Notes under the pieces: model-generated
Told to the model about the DNA's origin: nothing
The model's database searches: none
The model's input: the letters and a program-made list of their open reading frames with translations, nothing else
Made by a program: the position numbers and the translations under genes
Shown here: positions 10,767 through 34,292 of the stretch, piece by piece
Position numbering within the stretch: the stretch's first letter is position 1
Layout: each line of letters starts with the position of its first letter
NCBI GenBank assembly: GCA_016842065.1
Contig: JAEPDS010000014.1
Coordinates: forward strand, 12,132 to 76,131
Direction of reading: 5' to 3'
Source: Candidatus Thiodiazotropha sp. 'RUGA'
GTDB lineage: Bacteria; Pseudomonadota; Gammaproteobacteria; Chromatiales; Chromatiaceae
Length of the DNA: 64,000 nt

Positions 10767-11576
10767 TCAGGCAACCCGTTTGATGTGCTGAATCAGTCTC
10801 GCTGAGATCTCCTCGATCGACATGGAGGTGGTCTCGAGATAGGGGATGTTGTAGTGCTTGAACAGGCCCTCAGCCAGTTTGACCTCCATTTTACACTGTT
10901 CAAGAGAGGAGTAGCGCCGGTCCGGGCGTCTCTCCTGGCGGATACGCTGCAGTTGATGTGGGTCGATGGTCAGACCGTACAGCTTATCCTTGTACTTGGC
11001 GAGGGTCTTCGGCAGCAGGTCGCTGTGCAGATCGTCATCAGTGAGTGGGTAGTTGGCAGCCAGGACGCTGTGCTGCAGGCCCAAAAAGAGGCAGGTCGGG
11101 GTTTTGCCGCTGCGCGAGACGCCAACCAGAATCAGGTCGGCTGTCTCATAGTTCTTGGTAATCGCACCATCGTCATTGTTGAGAGCGAAATTGACCGCGT
11201 GGATACGCTGGTCATAGGCGCGACCGTTCTTGGTGGTATGGAACTGTCCCAGGGCATGGGAGGAGGGAAGACCCAGCTCCTCTTCCAGGCGGGTGGTGAA
11301 GGTTTCGAAGAAATCCATCACCGGAACATCCAGGGTTTTGAAGTAGTCGCGGATCGAGGGATCCACCAGGGTGGTGAAGACGATCGGTTTCTGTCCCGAC
11401 TCGATGGTCGTGTGGTTGATCCGCTCAGCCACCCGGCGGGCCTTGTCCAGACTGTCTATGAAAGGCCAATGCACGGTCTCATACTCAAAACCGTCGAACT
11501 GACTCAGCAGTGAGCGCCCCATCGCTTCGACAGTGATACCGGTATGGTCGGCCAGGAAATAGACAGTACGTTTCAT
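10767..11576 (-). CDS. ppsR: PEP synthase regulatory protein (kinase/pyrophosphorylase)
   Basis: DHTGIT, NDDG and LVGVSRSGKTPT motifs; adjacent to ppsA. Confidence 0.95.
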   Translation of the reverse strand: MKRTVYFLADHTGITVEAMGRSLLSQFDGFEYETVHWPFIDSLDKARRVAERINHTTIESGQKPIVFTTLVDPSIRDYFKTLDVPVMDFFETFTTRLEEELGLPSSHALGQFHTTKNGRAYDQRIHAVNFALNNDDGAITKNYETADLILVGVSRSGKTPTCLFLGLQHSVLAANYPLTDDDLHSDLLPKTLAKYKDKLYGLTIDPHQLQRIRQERRPDRRYSSLEQCKMEVKLAEGLFKHYNIPYLETTSMSIEEISARLIQHIKRVA

Positions 11577-11614
11577 TGGGATTTCAGATGACTCTACACT
11601 GATTGAGAAAGGTG

Positions 11615-11640
11615 GCGGGGAGACCCGACGGTCTCCCCGC
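11615..11640 (-). terminator. GC-rich hairpin between ppsA and ppsR
   Basis: Perfect 11-bp stem GCGGGGAGACC/GGTCTCCCCGC with a 4-nt loop. The U-tract is weak, so it may be a stabiliser or attenuator. Confidence 0.6.
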
Positions 11641-11646
11641 TACACC

Positions 11647-14058
11647 CTAGTCACTCAAGCCGGTCAACAGCCTCCAGGTATCGACAACCGTGTCAGGATT
11701 CAGGGAAATACTGGCAATCTTCTGCTCCACCAGCCATTCCGCAAGGTCGGGATAGTCAGACGGCCCCTGGCCGCAGATACCGACATACTTACCCGCCTTG
11801 TTACAGGCCTGTATTGCCATGCTGAGCATCCGCTTGACCGCCGGGTTGCGCTCATCGAAGCTGCCGGCAACCAGTCCGGAATCCCGATCGAGTCCCAGGG
11901 TCAGCTGGGTCATGTCGTTGGAGCCGATGGAGAAGCCGTCGAAGTACTCCAGGAACTCTTCCGCCAGCACCGCATTGGAAGGCAGTTCGCACATCATGAT
12001 GACACGCAGGTCGTTTTCACCCCGTTTCAGACCATTCTGTTCCAGCAGGCTGATCACGCCAGAGGCTTCATCCAGGGTACGCACAAAGGGGATCATGATC
12101 TCCACATTGCTGAAGCCCATCTCTTCGCGAACCCGTTTCAGGGCGCGACACTCCAGCTCGAAGCAGGGTCTGAAGCTCTCGGAGATATAGCGCGAAGCAC
12201 CACGGAAACCGATCATCGGATTCTCTTCTGAGGGCTCATAGAGCTTGCCACCGATCAGGTTGGCGTACTCATTCGACTTGAAGTCGGACATGCGTACGAT
12301 GACCGGCTTGCCCTCGAATGCGGCTGCCAGGGTGGAGATGCCTTCCACCAGCTTCTCCACATAGAACTCCACCGGATCGTCGTAGCCGTTCATCTGGCTC
12401 TGTGCGGCCGCCTTGATATCCTCAGGCAGTTTGTCGAACTCCATCAGAGCGCGCGGATGGACACCGATGGTGGTGTTGATGATGAACTCCAGCCGGGCCA
12501 GACCGATACCCCCATTGGGAATTCGGCTGAAGGCGAAGGCGCGACTTGGATTGGCCACATTCATCATGATCTTGGCCGGTGCTTCCGGCAGACTGGTGAC
12601 ATCGCCCTGGGTGACTGAGTATTTCAGCAGGCCCTCATAGATGAAGCCGTCATCCCCTTCCGCACAGGAGACCGTAACCTCCTGGCCTTCCTGAAGTTTT
12701 TCCGTCGCATCATGACAGCCGACCACTGCGGGGATGCCCAGCTCGCGGGCGATGATCGCCGCATGGCAGGTGCGACCGCCCCGGTTGGTGACGATCGCCG
12801 ACGCTTTTTTCATTACCGGTTCCCAGTCAGGATCGGTCATATCGGTGATCAGCACATCACCGGCTTCCACTTTGGCCATCTCACTGGCATCCGCAATCAC
12901 CTTGGCGACGCCGCTGCCGATACGCTGACCGATGGCGCGACCCTGAGCCAGCACTTTAGCGTCACTCTGTTCCAACTTGAAACGCTCGACGGAGGCGGTG
13001 TCGACCCGGCTCTCAACAGTTTCCGGGCGTGCCTGCAGGATGTAGAGCTGGCCGTCGGTACCGTCCAGACCCCATTCGATGTCCATCGGACGCTGGTAGT
13101 GCTTCTCGATGGTGATCGCCATCTGGGCCAGACTCTCGACCTGCTCGCTGGTGAGCGAGAAACTGGTTTGATCCTGTGGTTCCACATCGACCGTCTTGAC
13201 CCGCTCCTCACCTTCCTGGCCATAGACCATCTTGATCGCCTTGCTGCCCAGGTTGCGGCGCAGAATAGCGGGTCTGCCGGCTTCCACATTGCCTTTGTGC
13301 ACATAGAATTCATCGGGATTGACGGCACCTTGTACCACCGTTTCACCCAGGCCGTATGAGCTGGTGATGAATACCGCATCCTTGAAACCGGATTCGGTGT
13401 CGAGGGTGAACATGACCCCGGCTGAGCCGACGTCGGAGCGCACCATCCGTTGGATGCCTGCAGAGAGTGCCACATCCTCATGGGCGAATCCCTGGTGAAC
13501 GCGATAGGAGATGGCCCGGTCGTTGTACAGAGAGGCGAATACCTCTTTGATCGCGATCATTACGTCATCCAGACCCTGTACGTTGAGAAAGGTCTCCTGC
13601 TGTCCGGCAAAGGAGGCGTCGGGCAGGTCTTCAGCAGTCGCAGAGGAGCGCACCGCGACAGAGGGAACCTCCTCAGCATCACCCACCAGCTTCTTGTAGG
13701 CCGCGGTGACAGCATTCTCCAGCTCTTCCGGAAACTCCGCTTCGACCACCCATTCACGCACTGTCTTGCCCGCTTCCGCCAGTGCCGTGACATCGCTCAC
13801 ATCGAGCTGCTGCAACAGCGGGTCGATTCGCTCCGCAAGGCGGTTGTGTTGCAGAAACTCACGATAGGCATGGGCTGTGGTGGCAAAGCCACCGGGAACG
13901 GAGACGCCGGCATCGGCAAGACCGCTGATCATCTCACCAAGAGATGCGTTCTTGCCGCCGACCTGATCGACATCATGCATTTTCAGGTTTTCAAACCAGA
14001 TTATTTGTTCATTCACCGCTTGCCCTCGGCTTGTGGATTGATTGGATGGATCAGTCAT
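11647..14058 (-). CDS. ppsA: Phosphoenolpyruvate synthase
   Basis: [36 protein letters not shown] (phospho-His) and [15 protein letters not shown]. Start moved to ATG 14058 because the longer ORF runs through the upstream small gene. Confidence 0.97.
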
Positions 14059-14062
14059 TGTT

Positions 14063-14260
14063 TTAACCTCTGAGGTGGTCTCCTTGACGTTGGCAGCTGT
14101 TTCCGCTGCACAGACAGCTTTTACCACAGCCTGTGCCCTCTTCCTTATGAGGACCTAACTCAGGATGCAGTTTAGAAAAGCGTCGGGTGATGGACTGGAC
14201 GATCAACCAGCCCAACAACAGAATCGGTATCACGGTCATGGCGATGAGATAGTCGAGCAT
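14063..14260 (-). CDS. 65-aa single-TM protein with a C-terminal C-x3-C-x-C-x4-C motif (NqrM/FeoB-associated-like architecture)
   Basis: GGAGG RBS; start 4 nt after the rnfA stop; stop 4 nt before the ppsA start. Sequence [22 protein letters not shown]...[13 protein letters not shown]. Confidence 0.8.
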
Positions 14261-14264
14261 CGAA

Positions 14265-14855
14265 TCAACCTCCAAGTCCGGCAAAGCCCATGAACGAGAG
14301 TGAAAGCAGACCACCCAGCATCAGACTCACGGCGGCACCCTGGGTGATGCTCGGCATGGTCGAAAGCTCAAGCTTCTCGCGCAGACCGGCCATCAGCAGG
14401 ATCGCCAGGATAAAACCGACTCCGGCACCCAGTGCATAGACCAGGGATTGCAGGAAACTGTACTCCTTGAATGTCTGGAACAGGGCCAGACCGAGGATCG
14501 CACAGTTGGTGGTGATCAACGGCAGAAAGATGCCCAATGAGCGAAACAGGGCAGGGCTGAATTTTTTCAGGGTCATCTCCACCAATTGTACGGCACTGGC
14601 GATCACCGCGATATAGGCGATCAGGCGCAGGAATTCGATCTCAAAGGCGACCAGCACCTCATTGATCAGAAACGCACAGACTGAACTGACCAGCATTACG
14701 AACAGGGTTGCCAGGCCCATTGGTACGGCGGTATTGATCTTTCCCGAGACACCGAGGAACGGGCACAGGCCGAGAAACAGGGCAAGTACAAAGTTGTTTG
14801 CCAGTACCGCGTTGAGAAAGATAAAGCTTAGGGTTTCTGTCGCCATCGTGGTCAC
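14265..14855 (-). CDS. rnfA: Rnf electron transport complex subunit A
   Basis: NNFVLALFLGLCPFLGVS and FLPLITTNCAILG. Confidence 0.95.
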   Translation of the reverse strand: MTTMATETLSFIFLNAVLANNFVLALFLGLCPFLGVSGKINTAVPMGLATLFVMLVSSVCAFLINEVLVAFEIEFLRLIAYIAVIASAVQLVEMTLKKFSPALFRSLGIFLPLITTNCAILGLALFQTFKEYSFLQSLVYALGAGVGFILAILLMAGLREKLELSTMPSITQGAAVSLMLGGLLSLSFMGFAGLGG

Positions 14856-14931
14856 TTAATGATGTTTGAGGAGAGCGGGCTGCAACCGCCTGCAGGAATC
14901 TGAACCAATTTCATCTGATCGATTCTGTCGT

Positions 14932-15576
14932 TCATGATTCTGCCGCCGGATTCAGTTCAGTCTCGGATTTGCGCTGCTTCAGCCACTCGAACAGCAGCAG
15001 CCAGGCACCCAGTACGAGAAAGCCGCCGGCGGGCAGTACCATCACCACCCAGGGTTCGAATCTGGGGCCGAACAGATCAATGCCGAACAGGCTGCCGGCA
15101 CCGAGGATTTCGCGCACCACGCCAAGGCAGAGCAGGGCCAGGGTAAATCCCAGCCCCATGCCGGTGGCGTTGACGATCGACTTCAACGGCGGATTCCTGG
15201 AAGAGTAGGCCTCGGCCCGGCCCAGTATCATGCAGTTGGCTACGATCAGCTGGATGAAGGCACCCAGTGCATTGTAGAGATCCAGGGAGATCGCCTGGAT
15301 GGTGTAGTCGACAATGGTGACGAAGGTGGCGATGATGACGATGTAGGTGGCGATGCGCACCTGCTTGGGAATGCTGTTGCGCAGCAGCGAGATCAAAGTG
15401 CCTGAGGCGAGCAGTACGAAAAGTGTCGCAATACCCATCGCCAGGGCATTGATTGCCGAGTTGGTCACTGCCAGTACCGGGCACATGCCCAGCAGCATGA
15501 CAAACACAGGATTCTCACGCCACAAACCTTCACTGAAGGTATCCCAGGTGATGGTGTTGTCTTGTTTTTTCGCCAT
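14932..15576 (-). CDS. rnfE: Rnf subunit E
   Basis: ENPVFVMLLGMCPVLAVT, IPKQVRI and LIVANCMILGRAEAY. Confidence 0.95.
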   Translation of the reverse strand: MAKKQDNTITWDTFSEGLWRENPVFVMLLGMCPVLAVTNSAINALAMGIATLFVLLASGTLISLLRNSIPKQVRIATYIVIIATFVTIVDYTIQAISLDLYNALGAFIQLIVANCMILGRAEAYSSRNPPLKSIVNATGMGLGFTLALLCLGVVREILGAGSLFGIDLFGPRFEPWVVMVLPAGGFLVLGAWLLLFEWLKQRKSETELNPAAES

Positions 15577-15660
15577 GGTTATCAGTTAGTTCAATTCAGT
15601 TATTGTCAATCAATCGGACTCGGTCTTACTTTGCGCATGATCAATTAAATCAGGCATTGT

Positions 15661-16389
15661 TCACTGCGTCCCGCTGTCCGGCGTTTCAGGTTCGCTTGGC
15701 GGCGGTGGCGCATTGCGGATCACATCAATGTGTGGCATCAACTGGGGCAGTAGTTGCTGAGTGGATTGATTCAGCGCCTTGCCCACCGCTTTTGCGGAGA
15801 TGGTCGCGCCGGATATGGCGTCAATCTCCCAAGGGTTCTGTTTGGTGCCCGCTTTGACGGTCACAATCTCATTGGCCAGTGCGTCGCCGCCCGCATTCAG
15901 CTTTGCCTCCAGTGCATCGAAGTTGGCGACAAAGTTGGCATCGGTGATGATTTTGTCACCCAGCCCCGGGGTTTCTGCCAGCTTGAGCACTTTGATCCCA
16001 CGGACGCATTCACAATCGGGATCGTAGCCATACAGTAGGTGAATCATATCCGCATAGCCCTGAGCGCCGGCCTTGGCGGCAACACCATTCAGGTTGCCCT
16101 GTTGATCGTAACCCGCGTAGACCAGTACCCCCTCAGTGGGACCATCCGGGCTGACTGGCGTCACCGCCGATTCAGTGACCAGGAAATCACGTCGGGCAAC
16201 CGCACCCGGGATCACCTGAAACACCGCGGCCTCGATGGCACGCCGTTGGTTTTCTGCGATGATTGGTTTGGTCAGCTGGTAGGTGAGTACCACCAGAAAA
16301 CCCGACAACATGGCAATTCCCATCAGGGTACGAATCATCGGGCCCGTCGGGGTGGACGGTTGGATGGCTTGAGCTTCCGGTGTACTCAT
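15661..16389 (-). CDS. rnfG: Rnf subunit G
   Basis: N-terminal TM, ETPGLGDKI, and the FMN-attachment motif DAISGATIS. Confidence 0.94.
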   Translation of the reverse strand: MSTPEAQAIQPSTPTGPMIRTLMGIAMLSGFLVVLTYQLTKPIIAENQRRAIEAAVFQVIPGAVARRDFLVTESAVTPVSPDGPTEGVLVYAGYDQQGNLNGVAAKAGAQGYADMIHLLYGYDPDCECVRGIKVLKLAETPGLGDKIITDANFVANFDALEAKLNAGGDALANEIVTVKAGTKQNPWEIDAISGATISAKAVGKALNQSTQQLLPQLMPHIDVIRNAPPPPSEPETPDSGTQ

Positions 16390-17432
16390 TTGCCCGCCCT
16401 CTGCTCGCCGAACACCCGGGGTTGGGTGATCTGATCAATCAACGGTGTGGCCGCATTGCCCAGCAGGATGGCATACATCACCCCTTCGGTCAGACCGCCG
16501 AAGAGTCGGATGATCACGGTGATTACACCAATCATCACGGCATAGATCACCACCCCGAGTGGGGTAACCGGTGAACCGACCATGTCACTGGCCATGAACC
16601 AGGCGCCAAGCATCAGGCCGCCGGAGAGTACCACGAACAGTGGGTCCGGATATTTGGCCGGATCGATCATGTAGAAGATACCGGCAGTCACTGCGGCGCT
16701 GAGCAGGACCAGTACCGGAATGCGCCAATCGAGCATCCGTCTTGCCGCCAGATAGAGACCTCCGGCCAGAATCAGCAGCGCGGAGGTTTCGCCGGCGGAA
16801 CCGGCAGTGGTACCGAGCAGCATATCCATGTGGTCGGTCACGACACCTTCAAACTTCTGCAGTGCCAGCGGGGTGGCGCCGGAAAAGGCATCCACGGTGA
16901 CTTCCGAGATCCAGTCGCCTACAGCGGGGGGTTGCAGGAATGGGGGCGTCAGTGTGGTGGGGATGAACTGGCTGAAGCGGCCATCGAAAAATGCCGGTGT
17001 CCAGGTGGTGATGGCAACCGGAAAGGCGGCTTGAACAAAGGCCCGTCCGATCAGTGCAGGATTCATGGCGTTCATGCCCAGTCCGCCGAACATCGCCTTG
17101 CCCAGCGCGACACCGACGAAGGCGGCAACCGCACCCATCCAGAGGGGGAAACCGGGCGGCAGGGTCATCGCCAGCAACAGGCCGGTGATGGTGGCGGACC
17201 AGTCTCCCAGGGAACTGGGCTTACCGCTCAGCGCATTGAACATACGCTCACTCAACAGGCAGGTCAGGGTGACGACCACCAGCAGTGCCAGTGCGCTGAT
17301 ACCGAATTGCCAGACAGTGAATGCACAGATCGGTAGCAGGGCGTAGACCACATTGCGCATGATGACGACCACATCCTCCCCGGCATGGGCATGAGGTGAG
17401 GTACGCAGTTCAATGGTGGGTTTTTTACTCAT
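16386..17432 (-). CDS. rnfD: Rnf subunit D
   Basis: SPHAH, FGGLGMN.MNPAL, the FMN motif DAFSGATPL, and GSAGETS. Confidence 0.95.
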   Translation of the reverse strand: MSKKPTIELRTSPHAHAGEDVVVIMRNVVYALLPICAFTVWQFGISALALLVVVTLTCLLSERMFNALSGKPSSLGDWSATITGLLLAMTLPPGFPLWMGAVAAFVGVALGKAMFGGLGMNAMNPALIGRAFVQAAFPVAITTWTPAFFDGRFSQFIPTTLTPPFLQPPAVGDWISEVTVDAFSGATPLALQKFEGVVTDHMDMLLGTTAGSAGETSALLILAGGLYLAARRMLDWRIPVLVLLSAAVTAGIFYMIDPAKYPDPLFVVLSGGLMLGAWFMASDMVGSPVTPLGVVIYAVMIGVITVIIRLFGGLTEGVMYAILLGNAATPLIDQITQPRVFGEQRAGK

Positions 17433-17468
17433 GTTTGTTTTTTCAGCTATACAACATAGGCCGGAGGG

Positions 17469-18809: not shown

Positions 18810-18935
18810 AGTCTCTCTGATCTCGTTTAACCTTGAGTTCGCAATTGAACACGGTGTTGTGGGAAATCCATTATCGGGTTTGCCATAACAGAATCCATGC
18901 GCCGGATAGTAGCCACCAATTGCAGAATCGAGATT

Positions 18936-19003
18936 TAACAGGCGGAGCCGAAGCTCCGCACACTGTTAGCCAAATCGACCATCCTGGCTGTGCCGGATGG
19001 TCG
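18936..19003 (-). promoter_or_regulatory. Tandem hairpins directly 3' of the PFOR gene
   Basis: On the transcribed strand, a GCGGAGC stem closes a cUUCGg tetraloop (18942-18959). A second 9-bp stem lies at 18976-19003. Confidence 0.6.
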
Positions 19004-19011
19004 CCGTGGGT

Positions 19012-22000
19012 TTACTGAAATTTCGCTGCACGTTTGACAAACTTTTCCAGGTCTTTTTCAGTAGCGTTCCAAGGTGTTCCCGGATGGATGCAGGCCGCCG
19101 TGCACTTCTCGGCAGCCTTCACAATATCCTTGAACTGACCACCCTTGGGATCGGTGATAATCGCTTTCTTCTCGTCGTTGTAGGCGAAAATTTTCGGATT
19201 GATCTCGATACACTCATCACAGGCTGTACATTCCGGGGTTTCGATCCATACCGGCTCGTAGTCCTCTGCGGCAGCGCCGTTACTTCCCGCCGCAGCGGCA
19301 GAGCCATTGCTGCCATTGGCAGAGATGGAACCTGCCAGGGCGTCCGCGTTACCGCTGGCCGCCATGGAGAGCAGGGTGGAGCTGAGGCGGTTGGCCATAT
19401 CGACCTTGGCCTGATCGACCAGGGCATCCACATCCACTTTGTTCATCTCGCCGGCGACACCTTTCAGTTGACGCCAGAACTGTCGGCGCTCTTCACAGGA
19501 TTTGGCGATCTCCTGCGCACAGATGATACGCATCAGGCGGTTCTTGCTGTCCACACCCCAGATGTAAGGGAATTTGCCTTCCCGGTCATCTTCATCCATC
19601 TCCAGGAACTCATCCATGGGGACCATGTCATCGTTCCAGGTCTCCGGAGGCGCCATGCGGAACTGCTTGCGGAAACGCCCTTCGGTGACGGCAAAATCGG
19701 CGAAGGTCATGGGTACTTCCAGTTTACGCGCTTCACCCTTGTCATCCTGGTAGTCGATGGTATAGGTAGGCCAGTCATCGTCCAGTGAAGGGTTGCCATC
19801 CAGATCGATACAATCCTCGATGGTCTCGCCCGCATCCGGATCGTACTTCATCAGCGGATAGGCTCTCGATTCCACAGCCATTTTTGACTGTCTGAACGCG
19901 ATGTCGTCGCCCACACCATGCTCCGGAGGACAGACCGCATAGATGTTGAACAGTGCCGGATGACGGCTGTTCAGGCCATCGATGTAACCTTCCAGCAGGT
20001 GGGTGGTGTTACTGATGGTGCCCTGCAGGACATAGGTTGTCCGATGGGCGATACCGATCAGGGAGACCTCTTTGCGAATCTCTTCCTTACCTTTCCAGGC
20101 TTTACCGTAAGGACTCATATCCGCAACCTGGCCGATGTAGCCGGAGGTACAGGCCTGGCCACCGGTGTTGGAGTAGACCTGGGTATCGAGTACCAGGACT
20201 TTCACCGGCATGCCGGAGGCGAGGACACGGGAGAGGTTCTGGAAACCGATGTCATACATCGCGCCATCACCACCGACCGATACGACCGGCGGACAGAGCA
20301 GCCACTCCTCTTCGCTGAACTGCTTCCAGTTGAACTGCTGGAAGAAGGCGCCGTGCTCGATCGCATTGTACTTGCCTGCCAGTTCCAGTTCCGCTTTACG
20401 AATGGTGGCGAAGCCGTTCGCCATCTTACGCATGTGACCTTCGAAAAGTCCCATCGCGACCGATGGGCTGTCCTGGAACAGGTGGCTGGCCCAGGGGAAC
20501 GGATAGGGGTTGAAGGGGTAAGTGGATCCCCACACTGAGGTACAGCCGGTGGCGTTGACAATACCCATCTCGGCGCGACCGTTGTTGGTCTCACCCTCGG
20601 TGTAACGCCATTTCAAATCTCTCAGTTCATCCAGCAATCGGGTTGCTGATTGCAGCCACTCACGATCGATGACCGTCTTCTCGTGATCGCTGTCCAGATT
20701 CTCGCTCAGCCCGGAGAGGGTCAGATCACTCTCTTCACTGCCGGACATCGCTTCCGAGATCGCTTTCGAGCTGCTCAGATCCACACCTTCGGCCAGTTTC
20801 AGTCGGATGTGCTGTTCCAGCTGTTCGATCAGTTTGTCAATCTTCTCGATCTGCTGTTTGACCCGGGGCTGCATCAACGCAGTGACGGTAGAGGTGAACA
20901 GATGGATGATGGTCTTCTCACCACAACCCAGGCAGGCGCCGTCACCGCAGGAGAGGGAGTTGTAGTTCTCCTTGTCCATCAGCAGGGTCTGCAGAGCGCC
21001 GATCTTTTCGTCCAGGTCGTCGATGCGGTTGAATGAAGGATCACTGGTTGGCAGGTCGAGCCAGAAGTTCCAGTCATCGCGCATACGCGTAATCGCGGCT
21101 TCGTCCTGATGGGTGGCGAGCAGTGCTTCGTCTTCACAGATGGTGACACACTCCATACAGCCCTTACAGGTGTAAGGGTTGACGGTAATGGAGAAGAGAC
21201 CACCACTGTTCTTGCTCTTCTTCTCCATGTTGTTCCAGTAGGGCTTGGTGATGGAGAAATCGAACTCACCCATCGCCTGCAGGAATAGACCGAACTCCTC
21301 TTCCAGGGTAGCCCGTGCATCCTCTTCAATCTCGGCGGCCGCTATGGTCTCGAGTACCGCCTGATCCAGGACAGTCCGCACATTGGCCGCTTCGCCGGCC
21401 TCTTCGAGCAGTGCACGCAGACGTTTCTCCACGTTGCGGCTCTCTTTACGCAGGTATTGGGTCGGACGGCCAGCGGTTTCGATGCGGTTGATCGCGGTGG
21501 CGAAAACATCGCTGACCTTGTTGACCAGGCCGGGGATCGCGCTGTCGGGACAGATGGTGTAGCAGTCGCCACAGGCGGTACAGTTCTCCGCAACCCATTT
21601 CGGGTAGTCGAAACGGATCTGGGTCATGTCGCGGAAGACGCCGGTAGAGGCTGGAATCAGTGACAGAGCCTGATAGGGGTCGGCCAGATTCTCATTACCC
21701 TTGCCACTGGCGTAGAAGCTGCCGGTCTGTTCCCAGAAACGGTGTACATCGGAGATGCCGCCCTCTGCTTCAGGCAGTTGCTTGAGCATCACCGGCATGC
21801 CGATCTCTTTCTTCACCGGCAGCTGAGCGCTGCTGCCGATGGCTTTGTTGGTGATCTCGTGGATCTCATCGAAGCCGCGGCGTACAACCCGCAGGTTGTC
21901 CTCAACCACCCGGCGACCCTTGCTGCCGAATTTGGCGACAAGTTGACTCTCGATGGCGCTGAACAGTTTCTTCTCGTCCAGTCCCGCCATCTCCATCAGC

Positions 22001-23949
22001 GGAGAACCGGCAAAGAAGGCGCCTTGGAAGGCGTTACCCTGCATACGCAGCTGTAATTCGGCGTCGGAGGCCTCATCTTTGGCGATCTTGAAACCGTCCA
22101 GATAGAAGACATGGATCTCGTTGTCGATGATCTGCTGCTGCATCCAGCGGGGGAATGATTCCCATACCTCATCCGCCGAACCAAGGTCCGATTGGATGAT
22201 CAGGGTACCGCCCTGTTTCAGACCGGCCAGTGGATTGGAGTGACCGAACACGTTCGCGTCCGGGCTCAAGACCACATCCACATAGTGATACTCACAGTTC
22301 AGCGGAATCGGTGTCGGCGCCGCAGAGAGGTAGTAGGTGGTGGGTTGACCCTTCTTCTCCGAACCATATTTCGGATTCGCTTTGATCTCGTATCCGAGCA
22401 GATCATAGAGCGTCATGACCAGGTTCTTACCGGTGGTGATGGCGCCCCAGCCACCGACCGAGTGCATTCTTACGGTAATCGAGCCTTCCGGCATCAGATT
22501 CGGGTTTTCCGAACCGCGCAGCGCCATCTCGCCGATGTTCGGATAGGCTTCGAGCAGTTTCTGGATATGGATCTCCTGCTTGGGTGTGTCCGCATCGCGC
22601 ACGAAATCGATACCCAGGTAGAAGAACTTCCGCTGGCTGCCGTCAGGCAGCATATTCTCAACCGCAGCGATCAGTGCCTCAGGCTGCAGGTCACGGGAAC
22701 CCAGCCCATAGGCGCCGGAGTAGAGATGAGGGGCATCGGCAAAGCTGCTGTAGCAGTCATACTTTGCATAGGGCCGTGCCAGTTTGCCCGCTTTAGCCTG
22801 ACCGTTTTCAATACACTTGGAGACCACCGAGCGGACTTCTCGCATCAGCGGCAGGTCTTCCGCAAGCGGCTGGTCGGTACGCTCCAGTACGCAGACACCC
22901 TTTTTACCTTTCAGGATCTGACCCAACTGGTCACCCGGGAAGGGGCGGAACATGGTGATGTCGACCACACCGATCTTCAGTTTGCGGGTCTTCTCCAGAT
23001 AGTCGGCCAGGCCATGGGCCTGAACAATCATCGAACCCATGCCGACGATCAGGTAGTCGGCTTTCTCAGTGTTATAGGTGCCGATGCGGTTGTAACGACG
23101 CCCGGTAAGTTCATAGAACTCATCCATCGCCTTGTCAGCAATTTCCGGGATGTGCTGGAAGAAATAGGGCCTCTGTGCAGCGGTAGTCTGCATATAGGCA
23201 TCCTGGTTCTGCACCGAGCCTGAGAGCATGGGGTTGTCCACATCCCAGATCGCCGGTACCCGGCGACGGGTCTCACCGAACAGCAGCTTCTGTGCCGGGG
23301 TGGGGCATTCGATCTCATCATCCGGACGACCCAGATACTCAGCGATCAGCTCCCGTTCAGGCACCTGCAGCGGTTCGATCAGATGGGTGGTCAGAAATCC
23401 GTCCTGGGCAACCGCAGCCGGAGTCAGCGACATTTCGGCGATCTTGCGGCCGATCAGGTTCAGATCGGCGGCACCCTGGGCGTTGTTGGCGAAGACCTGG
23501 AAAAAGCCGGTATCGTCAATACAGTGGAAATCGTCATGGCCGCAATGCACGTTGAGTGAGGCCTTGGTGATCGCGCGACAGCCGATGTTCAGCACATAGG
23601 GGAGGCGTTTGCCCACTGCCGCATAGAGGGATTCATGCATGAATGCAATACCCTGGGCAGAGGAGAAGTTGGTGGCACGCAAGCCTGTCATGGACATACC
23701 GGCGGTAACCGCTGCAGCCGCGTGCTCCGACTCCGGTTCGATAAAGATCAGTGACCGATCAGAAACATTGACATGCCCTTTGGCGGTCTCTTCGGCCCAA
23801 TATTCACCCATTTGGGTGGATGGGGTGATGGGATATGCACCAGCGGCGTCAGAGGCTTCCCTCTCACACATAATGACTGCCCCGTTACCGTCCATTGCCA
23901 TACGGATACCAGGGTATTTGAAGCTCTTCTCTTCTTTCTTACCGAACAT
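19012..23949 (-). CDS. por: Giant single-chain pyruvate:ferredoxin (2-oxoacid:acceptor) oxidoreductase, NifJ/Por type, with an extra C-terminal ferredoxin domain
   Basis: AYPITPSTQMGE; GGWGAITTGKN; CTACGDCYTICP and CKGCMECVTIC; GACLGCGEK; GGDGAMYDIG...LDTQVYSNTGGQ (TPP binding); C-terminal CTACDECI...KCTAACIH. Confidence 0.93.
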   Translation of the reverse strand: MFGKKEEKSFKYPGIRMAMDGNGAVIMCEREASDAAGAYPITPSTQMGEYWAEETAKGHVNVSDRSLIFIEPESEHAAAAVTAGMSMTGLRATNFSSAQGIAFMHESLYAAVGKRLPYVLNIGCRAITKASLNVHCGHDDFHCIDDTGFFQVFANNAQGAADLNLIGRKIAEMSLTPAAVAQDGFLTTHLIEPLQVPERELIAEYLGRPDDEIECPTPAQKLLFGETRRRVPAIWDVDNPMLSGSVQNQDAYMQTTAAQRPYFFQHIPEIADKAMDEFYELTGRRYNRIGTYNTEKADYLIVGMGSMIVQAHGLADYLEKTRKLKIGVVDITMFRPFPGDQLGQILKGKKGVCVLERTDQPLAEDLPLMREVRSVVSKCIENGQAKAGKLARPYAKYDCYSSFADAPHLYSGAYGLGSRDLQPEALIAAVENMLPDGSQRKFFYLGIDFVRDADTPKQEIHIQKLLEAYPNIGEMALRGSENPNLMPEGSITVRMHSVGGWGAITTGKNLVMTLYDLLGYEIKANPKYGSEKKGQPTTYYLSAAPTPIPLNCEYHYVDVVLSPDANVFGHSNPLAGLKQGGTLIIQSDLGSADEVWESFPRWMQQQIIDNEIHVFYLDGFKIAKDEASDAELQLRMQGNAFQGAFFAGSPLMEMAGLDEKKLFSAIESQLVAKFGSKGRRVVEDNLRVVRRGFDEIHEITNKAIGSSAQLPVKKEIGMPVMLKQLPEAEGGISDVHRFWEQTGSFYASGKGNENLADPYQALSLIPASTGVFRDMTQIRFDYPKWVAENCTACGDCYTICPDSAIPGLVNKVSDVFATAINRIETAGRPTQYLRKESRNVEKRLRALLEEAGEAANVRTVLDQAVLETIAAAEIEEDARATLEEEFGLFLQAMGEFDFSITKPYWNNMEKKSKNSGGLFSITVNPYTCKGCMECVTICEDEALLATHQDEAAITRMRDDWNFWLDLPTSDPSFNRIDDLDEKIGALQTLLMDKENYNSLSCGDGACLGCGEKTIIHLFTSTVTALMQPRVKQQIEKIDKLIEQLEQHIRLKLAEGVDLSSSKAISEAMSGSEESDLTLSGLSENLDSDHEKTVIDREWLQSATRLLDELRDLKWRYTEGETNNGRAEMGIVNATGCTSVWGSTYPFNPYPFPWASHLFQDSPSVAMGLFEGHMRKMANGFATIRKAELELAGKYNAIEHGAFFQQFNWKQFSEEEWLLCPPVVSVGGDGAMYDIGFQNLSRVLASGMPVKVLVLDTQVYSNTGGQACTSGYIGQVADMSPYGKAWKGKEEIRKEVSLIGIAHRTTYVLQGTISNTTHLLEGYIDGLNSRHPALFNIYAVCPPEHGVGDDIAFRQSKMAVESRAYPLMKYDPDAGETIEDCIDLDGNPSLDDDWPTYTIDYQDDKGEARKLEVPMTFADFAVTEGRFRKQFRMAPPETWNDDMVPMDEFLEMDEDDREGKFPYIWGVDSKNRLMRIICAQEIAKSCEERRQFWRQLKGVAGEMNKVDVDALVDQAKVDMANRLSSTLLSMAASGNADALAGSISANGSNGSAAAAGSNGAAAEDYEPVWIETPECTACDECIEINPKIFAYNDEKKAIITDPKGGQFKDIVKAAEKCTAACIHPGTPWNATEKDLEKFVKRAAKFQ

Positions 23950-24055
23950 GGAAACTTCTCTTTGCTAGGTTTGCAATTTACTTTCTACCGCTATATCGAT
24001 GAGTATCTATATAGAGGAAACAGAAAGCATAGGCTTAAGGTTTTGACTGCCAACA

Positions 24056-24934
24056 TCAGAACGGCAGTGCTTCTTTACGTACTATGCGCTTGGCTTGTTG
24101 CCCTTTGATGACTCCCAGGGATTCATCAAGCCATACAATTGCCCCGGTCGGGCAGCGCTCAGTAGCAATAGGGGAGGCTAGACTAATCTTGTTATAGTCG
24201 ATTACAGCCAAATTGTCTTGAATACTAATCAATCCTTCCGGGGAGTCTTTGACACATCTTTCACAGGCGGTGCAGGCGACTTCGCAATCGTTTTCTGCAG
24301 TATCACCATGTTCCAGATTCTTACAGGCCACCCACAAGCGATGGGCAGCGTCCTGAATTGAGAACAGATCCTTGGGACAGATATCGACGCAATCGCCACA
24401 AGCGGTGCATTTTGCGTTGTCCACGATGGGTAATCCGTTGTGGTCCATGGTGATCGCATCGAACTCACACACATCCGCGCAATCGGCCAGACCGATGCAG
24501 CCCCAGGTACAGCTCTTCGGGCCGCCGGAGACGACGGCGGCTGCACGGCAGCTCTCCAAACCTTTATAATGGGCGCGCATACGGGCGACATGATTGCCAC
24601 CGGCGCAGGCCAGACGAGCTACCCGTTTCGCCACATCACCACTCTCCACGCCCAGGTAGTCGGCGATCTCCTCGATCGCATCGGCGTTGCTGACGGTACA
24701 TTGAGCGGGAGTGACCTCGCCGGAGATCAGTGCCTCGGCGAAGGGACGGCATCCGGCACTGCCACAGGCACCACAATTGGTGGCGGGCAACATGCCTTCC
24801 AGGTCATCGATTCGGGGGTCTTCAAATACCCAGAGCTTTTTGTTGGCGAATACCAGCATGGACGAGAGTAGCAGGCCAAGAATGCCCATAAAAAGGATAG
24901 CGGTCGTGACGTTAAGTGCGATCTCAATATCCAT
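24056..24934 (-). CDS. rnfB: Rnf subunit B
   Basis: N-terminal TM, LPATNCGACGSAGC, CTWGCIGLADCADVC, CTACGDCVDICP and CTACERC. ATG 24934 preferred over TTG 24940. Confidence 0.94.
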   Translation of the reverse strand: MDIEIALNVTTAILFMGILGLLLSSMLVFANKKLWVFEDPRIDDLEGMLPATNCGACGSAGCRPFAEALISGEVTPAQCTVSNADAIEEIADYLGVESGDVAKRVARLACAGGNHVARMRAHYKGLESCRAAAVVSGGPKSCTWGCIGLADCADVCEFDAITMDHNGLPIVDNAKCTACGDCVDICPKDLFSIQDAAHRLWVACKNLEHGDTAENDCEVACTACERCVKDSPEGLISIQDNLAVIDYNKISLASPIATERCPTGAIVWLDESLGVIKGQQAKRIVRKEALPF

Positions 24935-24958
24935 TTCCAATACCCGATGTCATGCCTG

Positions 24959-24991
24959 TGAAACCTAACTGAAACCCTTTAGAAACCTTAC
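24959..24991 (-). promoter_or_regulatory. Three direct repeats at 11-bp period upstream of rnfB
   Basis: GAAACC begins at 24960, 24971 and 24982 (TGAAACCTAAC TGAAACCCTTT AGAAACCTTAC). Confidence 0.6.
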
Positions 24992-25314
24992 ATAGTTTAA
25001 TGTTGGGGCTAGTATTGGTCTATGGAATGGGTTAAATAGAAAGTATTAATATATCTAAATACTTCAATAGCATTTAAAAAATTAATGAGTACATAAGTGC
25101 TCTGATCGATTGATACCAATCCCTACACTCAACTCTATACCCAAGGCATAGGATTTCAACCATGCTGGCCTATCAGAAAAAGTATCGGCGGGGTGGGCTG
25201 AAATTTAACCTGAAAAAAGTGGTGTTATAGCATCTTTCAGCTGTTTTTCAGGTGCCCATTCCGTCTGTTGGTCTGAGTGTGCTGGTGATTGGGACGGTGA
25301 GTTGCGCCGCTGAC

Positions 25315-28900: not shown

Positions 28901-29186
28901 GCTGCTCTCAGCATGGGTTTAGAAAAGAGTATTCTGTAGACCGTACAAATACTCGCTCAAGTTGTGGCTCGCTGACAAGAGTAATCTACCCAAGGAGAAC
29001 AACAACCGACAGCAAGCCAAGTCAACAATTCCCTTTGTCCCTAAGAAAATCATGTTATATCATCATCTTATGAAATTGAGTTCCAGCGGAATGAAATTCA
29101 TGAGGTGTAACAGCATTGGATCGCTGACTTCTGGGTGGATGATTCACCCTTGATTCTAATAAAAATGGTTGAAGCGATCCTGTCCA

Positions 29187-34031: not shown

Positions 34032-34292
34032 TGTTTTGGTGCGTCGTTTTTTCGTTTGGTCGTTATATCTGAGCGATTAAGTAAGGTTTAGCAGATTTTT
34101 ATTGCGGTGCACTATTTTTTTTGTCAAAGCTAACTATTGAGATTTTTTTGAAAATAATGTTGACCTTTTCACTATGCTTTAACGCAGTGCACAAAAAGTC
34201 GAACACGCCTCAGAGAATGGCAGTGCGATTTTTCAGCCGTTACGACCGCACCAAGCAAGTGCGCGGCGAAGAATATGAGGAGATTGAAAATT

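What the first reader, a model, noticed from the sequence alone, without database searches (positions are those of the whole stretch)
10767..24991. Dedicated Rnf-PFOR-PEP synthase module: candidate ion-gradient-driven route from acetyl-CoA + CO2 to pyruvate to PEP
Seen: ten co-oriented genes, rnfB - por - rnfC - rnfD - rnfG - rnfE - rnfA - small Cys-rich gene - ppsA - ppsR, with gaps of at most about 200 nt, including 4-nt gaps and an ATGA overlap. The PFOR gene is inserted between rnfB (the ferredoxin-facing subunit) and rnfC. The C-D-G-E-A order is that of the Firmicute-type rnfCDGEAB operon rather than the proteobacterial rnfABCDGE(H); there is no rnfH, and RnfC is the short form. Established: Rnf can run in reverse, using pmf/smf and NADH to reduce ferredoxin; PFOR needs low-potential ferredoxin to carboxylate acetyl-CoA; PpsA converts pyruvate to PEP and pulls the reaction forward. 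Inference: one transcription unit encodes a reverse-electron-transport pyruvate synthase pipeline for acetate or CO2 assimilation under low O2, distinct from the housekeeping or nif-linked Rnf. The opposite direction (pyruvate oxidation with ion pumping) cannot be excluded, but ppsA fits it less well.
Basis: partly seen in the sequence, partly recalled or inferred. Interest (0 to 1): 0.85.

Follow-up and report, generated by a model that had tools for sequence, protein, structure and literature searches.

The report
Rnf operon with built-in pyruvate oxidoreductase
A sulfur-oxidising clam symbiont carries one operon joining a membrane ion pump (Rnf), an unusually long pyruvate:ferredoxin enzyme with its own tethered ferredoxin, a tiny cysteine-rich membrane protein and PEP synthase; the pump-plus-enzyme core is conserved across at least six bacterial phyla, has been noticed only in passing, and has never been characterised.

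Summary
Ten co-oriented minus-strand genes lie at 24940-10767: rnfB, a 1645-aa PFOR-like gene, rnfC-D-G-E-A, a 65-aa membrane/Cys-rich gene, ppsA and ppsR. Gaps are 4-202 nt, with one ATGA overlap. The window is Candidatus Thiodiazotropha, 99% identical to T. taylori. Metatranscriptome contigs span every junction.

New findings:
- The "PFOR" is a distinct long family. It has two inserted helical modules and a C-terminal single-cluster ferredoxin on a disordered linker.
- It sits between rnfB and rnfC in every testable genome: 71/71 and 64/65 loci in Gamma/Betaproteobacteria, 31/31 and 33/33 in Gemmatimonadota, Planctomycetota, Acidobacteriota and Nitrospirota, and 4/4 in Calditrichota-like MAGs.
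- The small Cys-rich gene follows rnfA in 59/61 proteobacterial loci.
- ppsA follows in 16/57 loci; a plant-type FNR follows in about 27/57.
- Congeners also carry a separate nif-linked rnfABCDGEH.

Functional coupling of PFOR and Rnf is strongly supported. The direction is not settled by sequence. ppsA fits ion-gradient-driven acetyl-CoA + CO2 to pyruvate to PEP, but it also fits a pyruvate-utilisation operon. The rnfB-PFOR-rnfC adjacency was noted in 2014 for the Solemya velum symbiont. I class it as a new variant of known kinds, of moderate to high interest.

The parts
25106..25159 (-). Candidate promoter region: a sigma-70-like site at 25159-25132 and an FNR/CRP-type box-like sequence TTGGTATCAATCGA at 25119-25106, in an AT-rich leader upstream of rnfB
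   Evidence: Consensus scan. RNA contigs end with adapter sequence at 25095 and 25165. The box has 2 mismatches here and 1 in L001. Boxes with at most 2 mismatches occur upstream of rnfB in 25/69 loci against 9.7 expected. This is weak evidence and only a lead.
24056..24940 (-). rnfB: long polyferredoxin form (292-294 aa, 20 Cys) with an N-terminal membrane anchor
   Evidence: TIGR01944 89 bits, above its cut-off of 69. Best PDB matches are A. woodii RnfB 9ERI (182 bits) and C. tetanomorphum 7ZC6 (168 bits), against 45 bits for A. vinelandii Rnf1 8AHX.
19012..23949 (-). Long PFOR-like 2-oxoacid:ferredoxin oxidoreductase, 1645 aa
   Evidence: Pfam domains POR_N, PFOR_II, POR, Fer4 and TPP_enzyme_C. 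Closest solved structure is M. thermoacetica PFOR 6CIN. The TPP motif and all cluster Cys are invariant in the family.
21214..21504 (-). Insertion A (residues about 816-912), inside the two-cluster ferredoxin domain V
   Evidence: The 6CIN alignment jumps from chain residue 711 to 726 while the query runs from 815 to 913. AF2 predicts a five-helix bundle with pLDDT 73-87. Mean identity to the window's protein across 50 homologs is 63%.
20569..20892 (-). Insertion B (residues about 1020-1127), in domain VI just after the CxxC cluster ligands
   Evidence: Gap in the 6CIN alignment between chain residues 822 and 829. AF2 predicts a long helical hairpin that includes a 46-residue helix. Mean identity to the window's protein is 60%.
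19261..19356 (-). Ala/Gly/Ser/Asn-rich flexible linker (residues about 1532-1563)
   Evidence: pLDDT below 50. Only 41% identity across homologs, against 75-81% for the flanking domains.
19015..19260 (-). C-terminal tethered single-cluster ferredoxin domain (residues about 1564-1645)
   Evidence: Pfam Fer4_13. Matches D. africanus ferredoxin I 1DAX at E 4e-7. Cys1574, 1577, 1580 and 1616 are invariant. pLDDT 76-84.
18940..19005 (-). Two hairpins without a T-run in the 202-nt PFOR-rnfC gap, one of them GCGGAGC-TTCG-GCTCCGC; possible attenuator or mRNA-stabilising element
   Evidence: Read directly from the sequence. Not called as a terminator. Contig depth is higher upstream than downstream in runs X1-X3, but contig depth is a poor measure of expression.
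17469..18809 (-). rnfC, short form of 446 aa, with two CxxCxxCxxxC motifs
   Evidence: TIGR01945 511 bits, above its cut-off of 246. 7ZC6_C 376 bits. Motifs shown.
16386..17432 (-). rnfD, with an SGAT flavinylation motif
   Evidence: TIGR01946 289 bits, above its cut-off of 207. Motif at residue 184.
15661..16389 (-). rnfG (FMN_bind domain, SGAT motif); overlaps rnfD by ATGA
   Evidence: TIGR01947 100.7 bits, just under its cut-off of 102. Motif at residue 193.
14932..15576 (-). rnfE, with the conserved Cys pair (MCP and NCM motifs)
   Evidence: TIGR01948 232 bits, above its cut-off of 213. Cys32 and Cys115.
14265..14855 (-). rnfA, with the conserved Cys pair (LCP and NCA motifs)
   Evidence: TIGR01943 234 bits, above its cut-off of 229. 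Cys28 and Cys115.
14063..14260 (-). 65-aa protein with one transmembrane helix, an HPE(L/F)GP motif and a GCGxxCxCxxxxC tail; candidate accessory subunit or assembly factor of this Rnf type
   Evidence: Lies 4 nt after rnfA and 4 nt before ppsA. An ortholog follows rnfA in 59/61 proteobacterial loci. Analogous TM+Cys ORFs follow rnfA in other phyla. No Pfam or NCBIfam match even at E 10. NCBI names it 'chemotaxis protein'.
11647..14058 (-). ppsA, PEP synthase (803 aa), with catalytic His motif GGRTCHAAI
   Evidence: NF005057 1253 bits, above its cut-off of 598. Motif shown.
10767..11576 (-). ppsR, the PEP synthase regulatory kinase/phosphorylase
   Evidence: NF049928 354 bits, above its cut-off of 350.

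Best explanation
This is one operon. It encodes an ion-translocating ferredoxin:NAD+ oxidoreductase (Rnf, clostridial/Chlorobi-Bacteroidetes type) together with its own dedicated pyruvate:ferredoxin oxidoreductase.

The PFOR belongs to a special long family. It carries a fourth [4Fe-4S] cluster in a ferredoxin domain tethered by a flexible linker. I infer that this domain shuttles electrons between the PFOR cluster chain and the polyferredoxin RnfB.

The pair would then act as a reversible, ion-gradient-coupled pyruvate:NAD+ oxidoreductase:
pyruvate + CoA + NAD+ <-> acetyl-CoA + CO2 + NADH, coupled to Na+/H+ export or import.

The small Cys-rich membrane protein is probably an accessory subunit or metal-centre assembly factor.

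In this Thiodiazotropha the module is translationally tight with ppsA-ppsR. I therefore think that, when sulfur oxidation keeps the membrane energised, it mainly runs in the assimilatory direction. NADH plus ion influx reduces the tethered ferredoxin, PFOR carboxylates acetyl-CoA (from acetate or storage polymer), and PpsA pulls pyruvate on to PEP.

Shown: gene content, motifs, synteny, expression. Inferred: electron path, physical coupling, direction.
For: - Gene identities and intact cofactor motifs.
- 4-nt gaps and an ATGA overlap, with no coding-strand terminator in any gap.
- RNA contigs cross every junction. One is a single 12.5-kb contig running from ppsR into PFOR. Contigs cross the rnfA/small gene/ppsA junction in the four sediment metatranscriptomes X1-X4 and in X5, a host-labelled run whose RNA status is only guessed.
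- The PFOR lies between rnfB and rnfC in 71/71 and 64/65 proteobacterial loci, 31/31 and 33/33 loci from four other phyla, and 4/4 Calditrichota-like loci.
- PFOR and the Rnf subunits diverge in step (about 48-57% identity to the Gemmatimonadota versions), so the module evolves as a unit.
- The ferredoxin domain is 75% conserved while its linker is 41% conserved and predicted disordered.
- For direction: ppsA follows the module in 16/57 loci from Sedimenticolaceae, Thiohalomonadaceae, Chromatiaceae, Gallionellaceae and Methylophilaceae.
- Glyoxylate-shunt genes lie 8-12 kb away.
- A separate nif-linked rnfABCDGEH exists in congeners, so this Rnf is not the nitrogenase one.
- From established knowledge (my memory, not tested here): Rnf is reversible; purple sulfur bacteria cannot photoreduce ferredoxin directly; ferredoxin-dependent pyruvate synthase and PEP synthase activities were first shown in Chromatium extracts (Buchanan, Bachofen and Arnon 1964; Buchanan and Evans 1965).
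Against: - Direction cannot be read from sequence. ppsA is absent from 41/57 proteobacterial loci and from the Gemmatimonadota, Planctomycetota, Acidobacteriota and Nitrospirota loci. Those phyla are, to my knowledge, largely heterotrophic, and there an oxidative role is more natural.
- PpsA is also required for growth on pyruvate, lactate or alanine, so co-expression fits pyruvate consumption by both enzymes.
- The organism has a glyoxylate shunt, so it does not need pyruvate synthase for C2 assimilation.
- Long PFORs without the C-terminal ferredoxin are also Rnf-embedded, so the tether is not essential to the association.
- The RNA evidence comes from assembled contigs with no strand information, and DNA carry-over is not excluded. 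The same contigs run on into neighbouring genes.
- Substrate specificity (pyruvate versus another small 2-oxoacid) is inferred only from motifs shared with 6CIN.
- The AF2 model is of moderate quality (mean pLDDT 65).
Confidence: 0.5

Rival explanations
1. Energy-conserving pyruvate oxidation. Under hypoxia or anoxia, or on C3 substrates or glycogen breakdown, the long PFOR oxidises pyruvate to acetyl-CoA + CO2. Its ferredoxin domain passes electrons to RnfB, and Rnf reduces NAD+ while exporting Na+/H+. This would be a pyruvate dehydrogenase replacement that saves the roughly 180 mV drop. ppsA-ppsR sit in the operon because both enzymes draw on the same pyruvate pool (a pyruvate-utilisation operon: part to acetyl-CoA, part to PEP for gluconeogenesis).
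For: - The module is found in Gemmatimonadota, Planctomycetota, Acidobacteriota and Nitrospirota without ppsA within about 9 kb. Those phyla are, to my knowledge, largely heterotrophic.
- Most proteobacterial loci lack ppsA.
- The only published reading of the locus is oxidative (PMC4287430).
- FNR-box-like sequences are about 2.6-fold enriched upstream of rnfB, which hints at low-oxygen induction.
- A peroxiredoxin gene lies inside the operon in L006, which hints at an oxygen-sensitive enzyme used at oxic/anoxic interfaces.
- The Rnf type is that of fermenters, in which it runs forward.
Against: - PpsA only makes PEP from pyruvate, and the 4-nt coupling to the Rnf genes suggests stoichiometric co-production with a pyruvate producer.
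- Many carriers are autotrophs or acetate photo-assimilators (Chromatiaceae, Gallionella, Sulfuritalea). To my knowledge ferredoxin-dependent pyruvate synthase activity has been reported in Chromatium extracts.
- An FNR-type NADP reductase in the operon fits either direction.
Confidence: 0.35
2. General low-potential electron hub. PFOR and Rnf are two alternative sources or sinks for one ferredoxin pool. That pool feeds other consumers such as nitrogenase, OGOR, FNR (to make NADPH) and sulfite or nitrite reduction. ppsA is only a neighbour sharing a promoter.
For: - A plant-type FNR gene follows the module in about 27/57 proteobacterial loci and in L213.
- Carriers are often diazotrophs, and Thiodiazotropha has nif genes.
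Against: - A dedicated nif-linked Rnf already exists.
- Fusing a ferredoxin domain to the PFOR argues for a private electron path rather than a free pool.
- The embedding between rnfB and rnfC is universal.
Confidence: 0.1
3. The adjacency has no functional meaning: a selfish or accidental insertion of a por gene into an rnf operon.
For: None beyond the general possibility. One locus, L025, shows that insertions of 5.4 kb are tolerated between PFOR and rnfC.
Against: The position is conserved in every testable locus across at least six phyla at 33-50% protein identity.
Confidence: 0.02

Closest known systems
Rnf complex of Acetobacterium woodii / Clostridium tetanomorphum (PDB 9ERI, 7ZC6)
   Same: Six subunits. 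Long multi-cluster RnfB (182 and 168 bits). RnfC and RnfD score slightly better against these than against A. vinelandii Rnf1. Short RnfC and no RnfH.
   Different: The gene order is rnfB first (rnfBCDGEA, given as Chlorobi/Bacteroidetes-type in PMC4014512). A 5-kb PFOR gene is embedded after rnfB, and a conserved small Cys-rich membrane gene follows rnfA. The host is a microaerobic sulfur oxidiser, not a fermenter or acetogen.
Homodimeric NifJ/YdbK-type PFOR (M. thermoacetica 6CIN, D. africanus 1B0P)
   Same: Same domain order. The YPITPS, ESE, R(A), GDG and YSNTGGQ motifs and all twelve Cys of the three [4Fe-4S] clusters are conserved.
   Different: - About 470 aa longer, at roughly 20-30% identity.
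- Scores 400 bits against the 911-bit cut-off of TIGR02176.
- No Pfam EKR (domain IV) match.
- Insertion A lies inside domain V and insertion B in domain VI.
- A 269-aa C-terminal extension ends in a fourth cluster domain resembling D. africanus ferredoxin I.
rnf2 (rnfBCDGEA with PFOR between rnfB2 and rnfC2) of the Solemya velum gill symbiont, Dmytrenko et al. 2014 (PMC4287430)
   Same: The same locus type. The S. velum symbiont contig is L067, with PFOR 69% identical, followed by rnfCDGEA, the small gene and FNR.
   Different: That paper gave one sentence and an oxidative reading. It did not note the unusual PFOR, the small gene, the ppsA or FNR links, or the cross-phylum distribution. In L067 the gene after the small gene is FNR, not ppsA.
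nif-linked rnfABCDGEH of Rhodobacter capsulatus / Azotobacter vinelandii Rnf1 (PDB 8AHX)
   Same: The same principle of reverse, gradient-driven ferredoxin or flavodoxin reduction for one dedicated low-potential consumer. This type is also present in Thiodiazotropha congeners next to nifL.
   Different: Different Rnf type (short RnfB of about 190 aa, RnfC of 533 aa, RnfH present, gene order ABCDGEH; 30-46% identity in L036). The consumer, nitrogenase, is not encoded inside that operon.
Pyruvate:NADP+ oxidoreductase (PNO) of Euglena / Cryptosporidium (from memory, not tested here)
   Same: A PFOR covalently fused to its own electron-acceptor module, making a private path from pyruvate to a pyridine nucleotide.
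   Different: The PNO partner is a soluble CPR-like flavoprotein reducing NADP+, with no membrane or ion coupling. Here the fused partner is a small ferredoxin, and the pyridine-nucleotide step is the membrane Rnf.
NqrM (DUF539), maturation factor of Na+-NQR (from memory)
   Same: A small protein with one transmembrane helix and a Cys-rich tail, encoded next to the operon of a homologous ion pump whose NqrD/E (equivalent to RnfE/A) Cys pairs hold an iron centre.
   Different: No sequence match to any Pfam or NCBIfam model even at E 10. The HPE(L/F)GP motif is specific to this family. The function is untested.

Membership tests
Rnf complex (RnfABCDGE-type ion-translocating ferredoxin:NAD+ oxidoreductase) | All six subunits present and matching the curated subunit models | tested here: met
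   RnfB, C, D, E and A score above their TIGRFAM cut-offs. RnfG scores 100.7 against 102, marginally below, but has the FMN_bind domain.
Rnf complex (RnfABCDGE-type ion-translocating ferredoxin:NAD+ oxidoreductase) | Cofactor sites: SGAT flavinylation motifs in RnfD and RnfG, Cys pairs in RnfA and RnfE, two 4Fe-4S motifs and the Nuo51-type FMN/NADH domain in RnfC, Fe-S domains in RnfB | tested here: met
   Motifs listed; domains.
Rnf complex (RnfABCDGE-type ion-translocating ferredoxin:NAD+ oxidoreductase) | Ferredoxin:NAD+ oxidoreductase activity coupled to Na+ or H+ translocation | not testable with these tools
   Requires membrane vesicles or a reconstituted enzyme.
NifJ/YdbK-type pyruvate:ferredoxin (flavodoxin) oxidoreductase (TIGR02176) | Score above the curated equivalog cut-off | tested here: not met
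   400.6 bits against a cut-off of 911.35. It is therefore a separate subfamily, not an equivalog.
NifJ/YdbK-type pyruvate:ferredoxin (flavodoxin) oxidoreductase (TIGR02176) | Domains I, II, III, V and VI with TPP-binding GDG/YSNTGGQ motifs and ligands for three [4Fe-4S] clusters | tested here: met
   The residues are invariant across homologs. No match was found for domain IV (EKR).
NifJ/YdbK-type pyruvate:ferredoxin (flavodoxin) oxidoreductase (TIGR02176) | Pyruvate as the substrate | tested here: inconclusive
   The positions that align with the YPITPS Thr and with the Arg and Leu/Ile of the 6CIN active-site stretch are conserved (T42, R125, L132, V134). Their role in pyruvate binding is from memory. 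There is no biochemical test.
PEP synthase PpsA with regulator PpsR | Three PpsA domains with the catalytic His; scores above the equivalog cut-offs; PpsR (Kinase-PPPase) adjacent | tested here: met
   PpsA 1253 bits against 598. PpsR 354 bits against 350. GGRTCHAAI motif present.
NqrM (Pfam DUF539) for the 65-aa protein | Sequence match to the family model | tested here: not met
   No Pfam or NCBIfam hit for five orthologs at E up to 10. Only the architecture is similar.
Rnf-embedded long PFOR module (proposed here) | Long PFOR (about 1450-1700 aa, with insertions A and B) encoded between rnfB and rnfC, followed by rnfDGEA and a small TM+Cys gene | tested here: met
   Window. Proteobacteria 71/71 and 64/65; small gene 59/61. 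Other phyla 31/31 and 33/33. Calditrichota-like loci 4/4.

The most novel reading that the evidence does not exclude
The long PFOR is not merely co-expressed with this Rnf but is a physical, stoichiometric partner of it. Its family-specific helical insertions dock it onto RnfB/RnfC, and the tethered ferredoxin domain (where present) swings between the two. This would create a single membrane-bound, ion-translocating pyruvate:NAD+ oxidoreductase. In energised sulfur oxidisers and purple sulfur bacteria, that complex would be the long-sought source of low-potential electrons for pyruvate synthase. It would be assembled with the help of a previously unrecognised small Cys-rich membrane protein, and it would be an ancient module shared by at least six bacterial phyla.
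Probability: 0.3. Interest if true: 0.8.

Novelty: new variant of a known kind. Interest (0 to 1): 0.62.

Why it matters
Rnf and PFOR are both well known, but they are normally pictured as communicating through a free ferredoxin pool in strict anaerobes. Here a special PFOR family is hard-wired into one Rnf type.

If the pair works as an ion-gradient-coupled pyruvate:NAD+ oxidoreductase, three things would follow:
- It would explain how organisms without a low-potential photosystem or electron bifurcation make pyruvate from acetyl-CoA and CO2. To my knowledge this activity has been reported in Chromatium extracts since the 1960s.
- It would add an energy-conserving alternative to pyruvate dehydrogenase.
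- It would change carbon-budget models for chemosynthetic symbioses (heterotrophic CO2 fixation, re-assimilation of acetate or storage polymer).

The conserved 65-aa protein, currently misnamed 'chemotaxis protein', and the tethered ferredoxin are concrete and cheap experimental handles. Several carriers are culturable.

Tried and rejected
1. My first synteny script used ppsA and small-gene coordinates that were off by 1-2 nt. It reported odd identities (PpsA 51% within the genus), which I briefly read as xenologous replacement. With the correct frames, PpsA is 99/87/88% identical in L001/L003/L007. That idea is withdrawn.

2. NqrM membership of the small protein: no match.

3. I tested whether the C-terminal ferredoxin is what ties long PFORs to Rnf. 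It is not. A Calditrichota-like clade without it is also embedded between rnfB and rnfC.

4. I looked for rTCA genes next to the module in the Lamellibrachia symbiont (L006), which would have fixed the direction. None were found within 9 kb. A peroxiredoxin gene lies inside the operon instead.

5. FNR-box regulation: only a 2.6-fold enrichment, and the box is not conserved among all Thiodiazotropha loci. I keep it as a lead.

6. Intrinsic terminators and promoters: the consensus scans found no more sites than in shuffled sequence.

7. A Foldseek search with the AF2 model returned only PFORs. It gave no identity for the inserted modules.

8. A profile of distant long PFORs was too divergent for the search for related loci.

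9. Nine successful literature searches (one further query was rejected for syntax) found no characterisation beyond one sentence in PMC4287430. The A. vinosum genome paper calls the role of its three rnf clusters 'entirely unclear'. Subscription-only papers are not covered.

Full report
**Observation**

ORF listing and family scans confirm a row of ten minus-strand genes:
- rnfB, 24940-24056
- a 1645-aa PFOR-like gene, 23949-19012
- rnfC, 18809-17469 (446 aa)
- rnfD, 17432-16386
- rnfG, 16389-15661
- rnfE, 15576-14932
- rnfA, 14855-14265
- a 65-aa ORF, 14260-14063
- ppsA, 14058-11647
- ppsR, 11576-10767

Reading the sequence shows 4-nt gaps on both sides of the small ORF and an ATGA overlap between rnfD and rnfG. 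The largest gaps are 106 nt (rnfB-PFOR) and 202 nt (PFOR-rnfC).

The flanks are unrelated. Upstream lie an SLT transglycosylase and adk. Downstream lies an adenylate-cyclase-domain gene.

The best protein matches are Candidatus Thiodiazotropha, lucinid clam symbionts: 99% to T. taylori and 97% to T. endoloripes.

**Transcription**

- No terminator-like site lies on the coding strand in any intergenic gap.
- In four sediment metatranscriptomes holding a strain about 97% identical, assembled contigs cover the whole row. One is a single 12.47-kb contig from 10667 (just past ppsR) to 23138 (inside PFOR). Contigs cross the rnfA/small/ppsA junction in all four runs.
- Contig ends carrying adapter sequence at 25095 and 25165 lie near a sigma-70-like site at 25159-25132. 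A break at about 10666 follows ppsR.
- Three gill, mollusc or host-labelled metatranscriptomes, plus X5 (a host-labelled run whose RNA status is only guessed), also hold parts of the row. X5 has a contig from 11240 to 14992 that crosses ppsR/ppsA/small/rnfA.
- Caveats: these are assembled contigs with no strand information, DNA carry-over is possible, and they also run into neighbouring genes. Co-transcription is therefore likely but not proven.

**The Rnf**

- All six subunits carry their cofactor motifs: SGAT in RnfD and RnfG, Cys pairs in RnfA and RnfE, two 4Fe-4S motifs in RnfC, and 20 Cys in RnfB.
- RnfB is the long polyferredoxin form. It scores 182 and 168 bits against the A. woodii and C. 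tetanomorphum subunits, but only 45 bits (N-terminus only) against A. vinelandii Rnf1. RnfC and RnfD also score slightly better against the clostridial complexes.
- The order rnfBCDGEA is the one PMC4014512 assigns to the Chlorobi/Bacteroidetes lineage.
- Thiodiazotropha congeners carry a second, different cluster next to nifL: rnfA, a short rnfB, a 533-aa rnfC, then D, G, E and rnfH.
- A Chromatiaceae MAG has both types side by side (L036).
I could not check it in the window's own genome.

**The PFOR**

It has the PFOR Pfam domains but reaches only 400 bits against the 911-bit cut-off of the NifJ equivalog. The closest solved structure is M. thermoacetica PFOR 6CIN.

Alignment to 6CIN shows three differences:
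- Insertion A, residues about 816-912, between the two cluster motifs of the ferredoxin domain.
- Insertion B, about 1020-1127, just after the CxxC ligands of the proximal cluster.
- A 269-residue C-terminal extension.

The last 80 or so residues of that extension match single-cluster ferredoxins, best D. africanus ferredoxin I at E 4e-7.

The TPP motif and all Cys ligands of four clusters are invariant in the family.

An AF2 model of residues 700-1645 (mean pLDDT 65, so moderate) predicts the following:
- Insertion A is a five-helix bundle.
- Insertion B is a long helical hairpin.
- The extension holds a beta-rich domain.
- A linker of about 30 residues is disordered (pLDDT below 50).
- The ferredoxin fold is confident (pLDDT 76-84).

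Across 50 homologs the ferredoxin domain is 75% identical to the window's, the catalytic core 81%, the insertions 60-63% and the linker 41%. That pattern fits a functional domain on a flexible tether.

**Distribution and synteny**

This is the main new result.
The best 80 loci include Sedimenticola, tubeworm and Solemya symbionts, Allochromatium, Thiocapsa, Marichromatium, Ectothiorhodospira, Thiothrix, a Shewanella, Sulfuritalea, Sulfurisoma, Gallionella and Novimethylophilus.
- In these loci rnfB is directly upstream in 71/71 testable cases and rnfC downstream in 64/65. The exception, L025, has a 5.4-kb insertion.
- An exhaustive phmmer search of 1.84 billion cluster representatives showed that the long form is a large family. 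More than 100 representatives are 1450-1700 aa long at 25-50% identity. Some have the C-terminal ferredoxin and some do not.
- Relatives of one distant member (42% identical) occur in Gemmatimonadota, Planctomycetota, Acidobacteriota (Vicinamibacteria), Nitrospirales and a Deltaproteobacteria-labelled MAG. There rnfB is upstream in 31/31 loci and rnfC downstream in 33/33.
- A clade without the ferredoxin domain (Calditrichota-like) is also embedded in 4/4 loci, with a further OFOR paralog upstream of rnfB.
- PFOR and the Rnf subunits diverge in step, so the module is inherited as a unit.

**The small gene**

- An ortholog follows rnfA within 3-97 nt (mostly 5-30 nt) in 59/61 proteobacterial loci. 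The shared features are one transmembrane helix, an HPE(L/F)GP motif and a GCGxxCxC tail.
- Analogous TM-plus-Cys ORFs follow rnfA in the other phyla.
- It matches no Pfam or NCBIfam model even at E 10. NCBI records call it 'chemotaxis protein'.
- By architecture it recalls NqrM, the maturation factor of the homologous Na+-NQR. That is my memory, not a test. I propose that it is an accessory subunit or an assembly factor for the RnfA/E metal centre.

**What follows the core**

After the small gene comes either ppsA (16/57 loci) or a plant-type ferredoxin-NADP reductase-like gene (about 27/57 loci), or both (L059, L079).
- ppsA is usually accompanied by ppsR. It follows in Thiodiazotropha, the Lamellibrachia symbiont, Thiohalomonadaceae, some Chromatiaceae, Gallionella and Novimethylophilus.
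- FNR follows rnfA in one non-proteobacterial locus too (L213).
- ppsA is absent within about 9 kb downstream in the Gemmatimonadota-type loci.

**Mechanism**

*Shown:* the genes, motifs, operon structure, expression and universal synteny.

*Inferred:* electrons pass from TPP through the three PFOR clusters to the tethered ferredoxin cluster, then through the RnfB clusters and the RnfA/E, G and D centres to RnfC and NAD+. That transfer is coupled to ion movement and is reversible.

*Energetics (established values, from memory):* the acetyl-CoA+CO2/pyruvate couple is near -500 mV and NAD+/NADH is -320 mV. About two ions per electron pair at a normal membrane potential could therefore drive pyruvate synthesis, and ATP hydrolysis to AMP by PpsA pulls the product on to PEP.

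*Favouring the assimilatory direction in this organism:*
- the tight coupling to ppsA
- the lifestyle of many carriers (autotrophs, acetate photo-assimilators)
- the neighbouring glyoxylate-shunt genes (aceK, malate synthase and isocitrate lyase at 32-37 kb)

*Equally compatible with an oxidative role:*
- PpsA is needed on pyruvate-type substrates.
- Most loci lack ppsA.
- The Gemmatimonadota, Planctomycetota, Acidobacteriota and Nitrospirota loci carry the module without ppsA, and those phyla are, to my knowledge, largely heterotrophic.
- There are weak hints of FNR-type low-oxygen control and a peroxiredoxin inside the operon in L006.

*Verdict:* functional PFOR-Rnf coupling is very likely (about 0.85). 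Primarily reductive operation here is about even odds. A reversible role that depends on energy state is the most economical summary.

**Literature**

- Dmytrenko et al. [quoted passage not shown] They suggested pyruvate as electron donor.
- The A. vinosum genome paper lists three rnf clusters of 'entirely unclear' role.
- Work on Endoriftia mentions a 'PFOR-like' isoform and an Rnf of unknown direction.
- The Kentron study argues for PFOR-based heterotrophic CO2 fixation in related symbionts.
- I found no description of the long PFOR family, its tethered ferredoxin, the small protein, the ppsA or FNR links, or the cross-phylum distribution. The library lacks most subscription journals.

**Verdict**

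The feature is a new variant of known kinds: an Rnf-embedded long PFOR module. The adjacency itself was already reported. Interest is moderate to high, because the module is widespread, uncharacterised, mechanistically suggestive and testable in culturable bacteria.

Noticed in passing
window 32265-37284 and 45950-46930: Glyoxylate-shunt set 8-12 kb from the operon: aceK (32265-34031, minus strand), malate synthase (34275-35906, plus), isocitrate lyase (35953-37284, plus), and a malate dehydrogenase at 45950-46930. A second acetyl-CoA assimilation route sits close to the PFOR-Rnf-Pps operon.
   Followed up: partly
window 51209-61067: A phosphonate uptake and C-P lyase cluster: a GntR/UTRA regulator, a phosphonate-binding protein, ABC transporter genes, phnI, phnJ and an amidohydrolase. 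This implies phosphonate use by a lucinid symbiont.
   Followed up: no
window 29169-32192, 2784-5279 and 9160-10605: Dense second-messenger signalling around the operon: a hemerythrin-PAS-GGDEF-EAL-CZB protein (a possible O2/NO or zinc sensor), a HAMP-PAS-GGDEF-EAL protein, and an adenylate/guanylate-cyclase-domain gene directly after ppsR with its own promoter-like site at 10714-10686.
   Followed up: no
L006 15005-15502: In the Lamellibrachia symbiont a peroxiredoxin (Redoxin/AhpC-TSA) gene sits between the long PFOR and rnfC. Several other loci have 600-800-nt gaps at the same place that may hold a similar small gene.
   Followed up: partly
L025 14923-20340: A 5.4-kb insertion separates the PFOR from rnfC in one uncultured gammaproteobacterium. 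This is the only break of the synteny seen, and its content was not examined.
   Followed up: no
L210-L213 (e.g. L210 4048-8118; L213 656-3089): Calditrichota/KSB1-like loci carry an extra, divergent OFOR paralog (about 24% identical) immediately upstream of rnfB. L213 also has a second rnfE-rnfA-FNR set nearby.
   Followed up: no
window 14063-14260 and public records (P0121, P0123, P0124, P0127): The conserved 65-aa Rnf-associated protein is annotated 'chemotaxis protein' in NCBI MAG records. That name has no support from any family model.
   Followed up: yes
L011, L014, L015, L026-L028, L032, L033, L056, L067 and others, directly after the small gene: A plant-type (PetH/BoxA-like) ferredoxin-NADP reductase gene is the commonest gene after the module (about 27/57 loci). 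This suggests that the same ferredoxin node is also wired to NADP(H) in many carriers. It is absent at this position in the window.
   Followed up: partly
window 18940-19005: Two stable hairpins without a T-tract lie just after the PFOR stop codon, one with a TTCG tetraloop. RNA contig depth tends to be higher upstream than downstream of them, so this may be a partial attenuator or an mRNA-stability element.
   Followed up: no
L058: Shewanella atlantica carries the full module (PFOR 69% identical), an unexpected host among mostly sulfur- and iron-oxidising carriers. The contig was not checked for signs of transfer.
   Followed up: no
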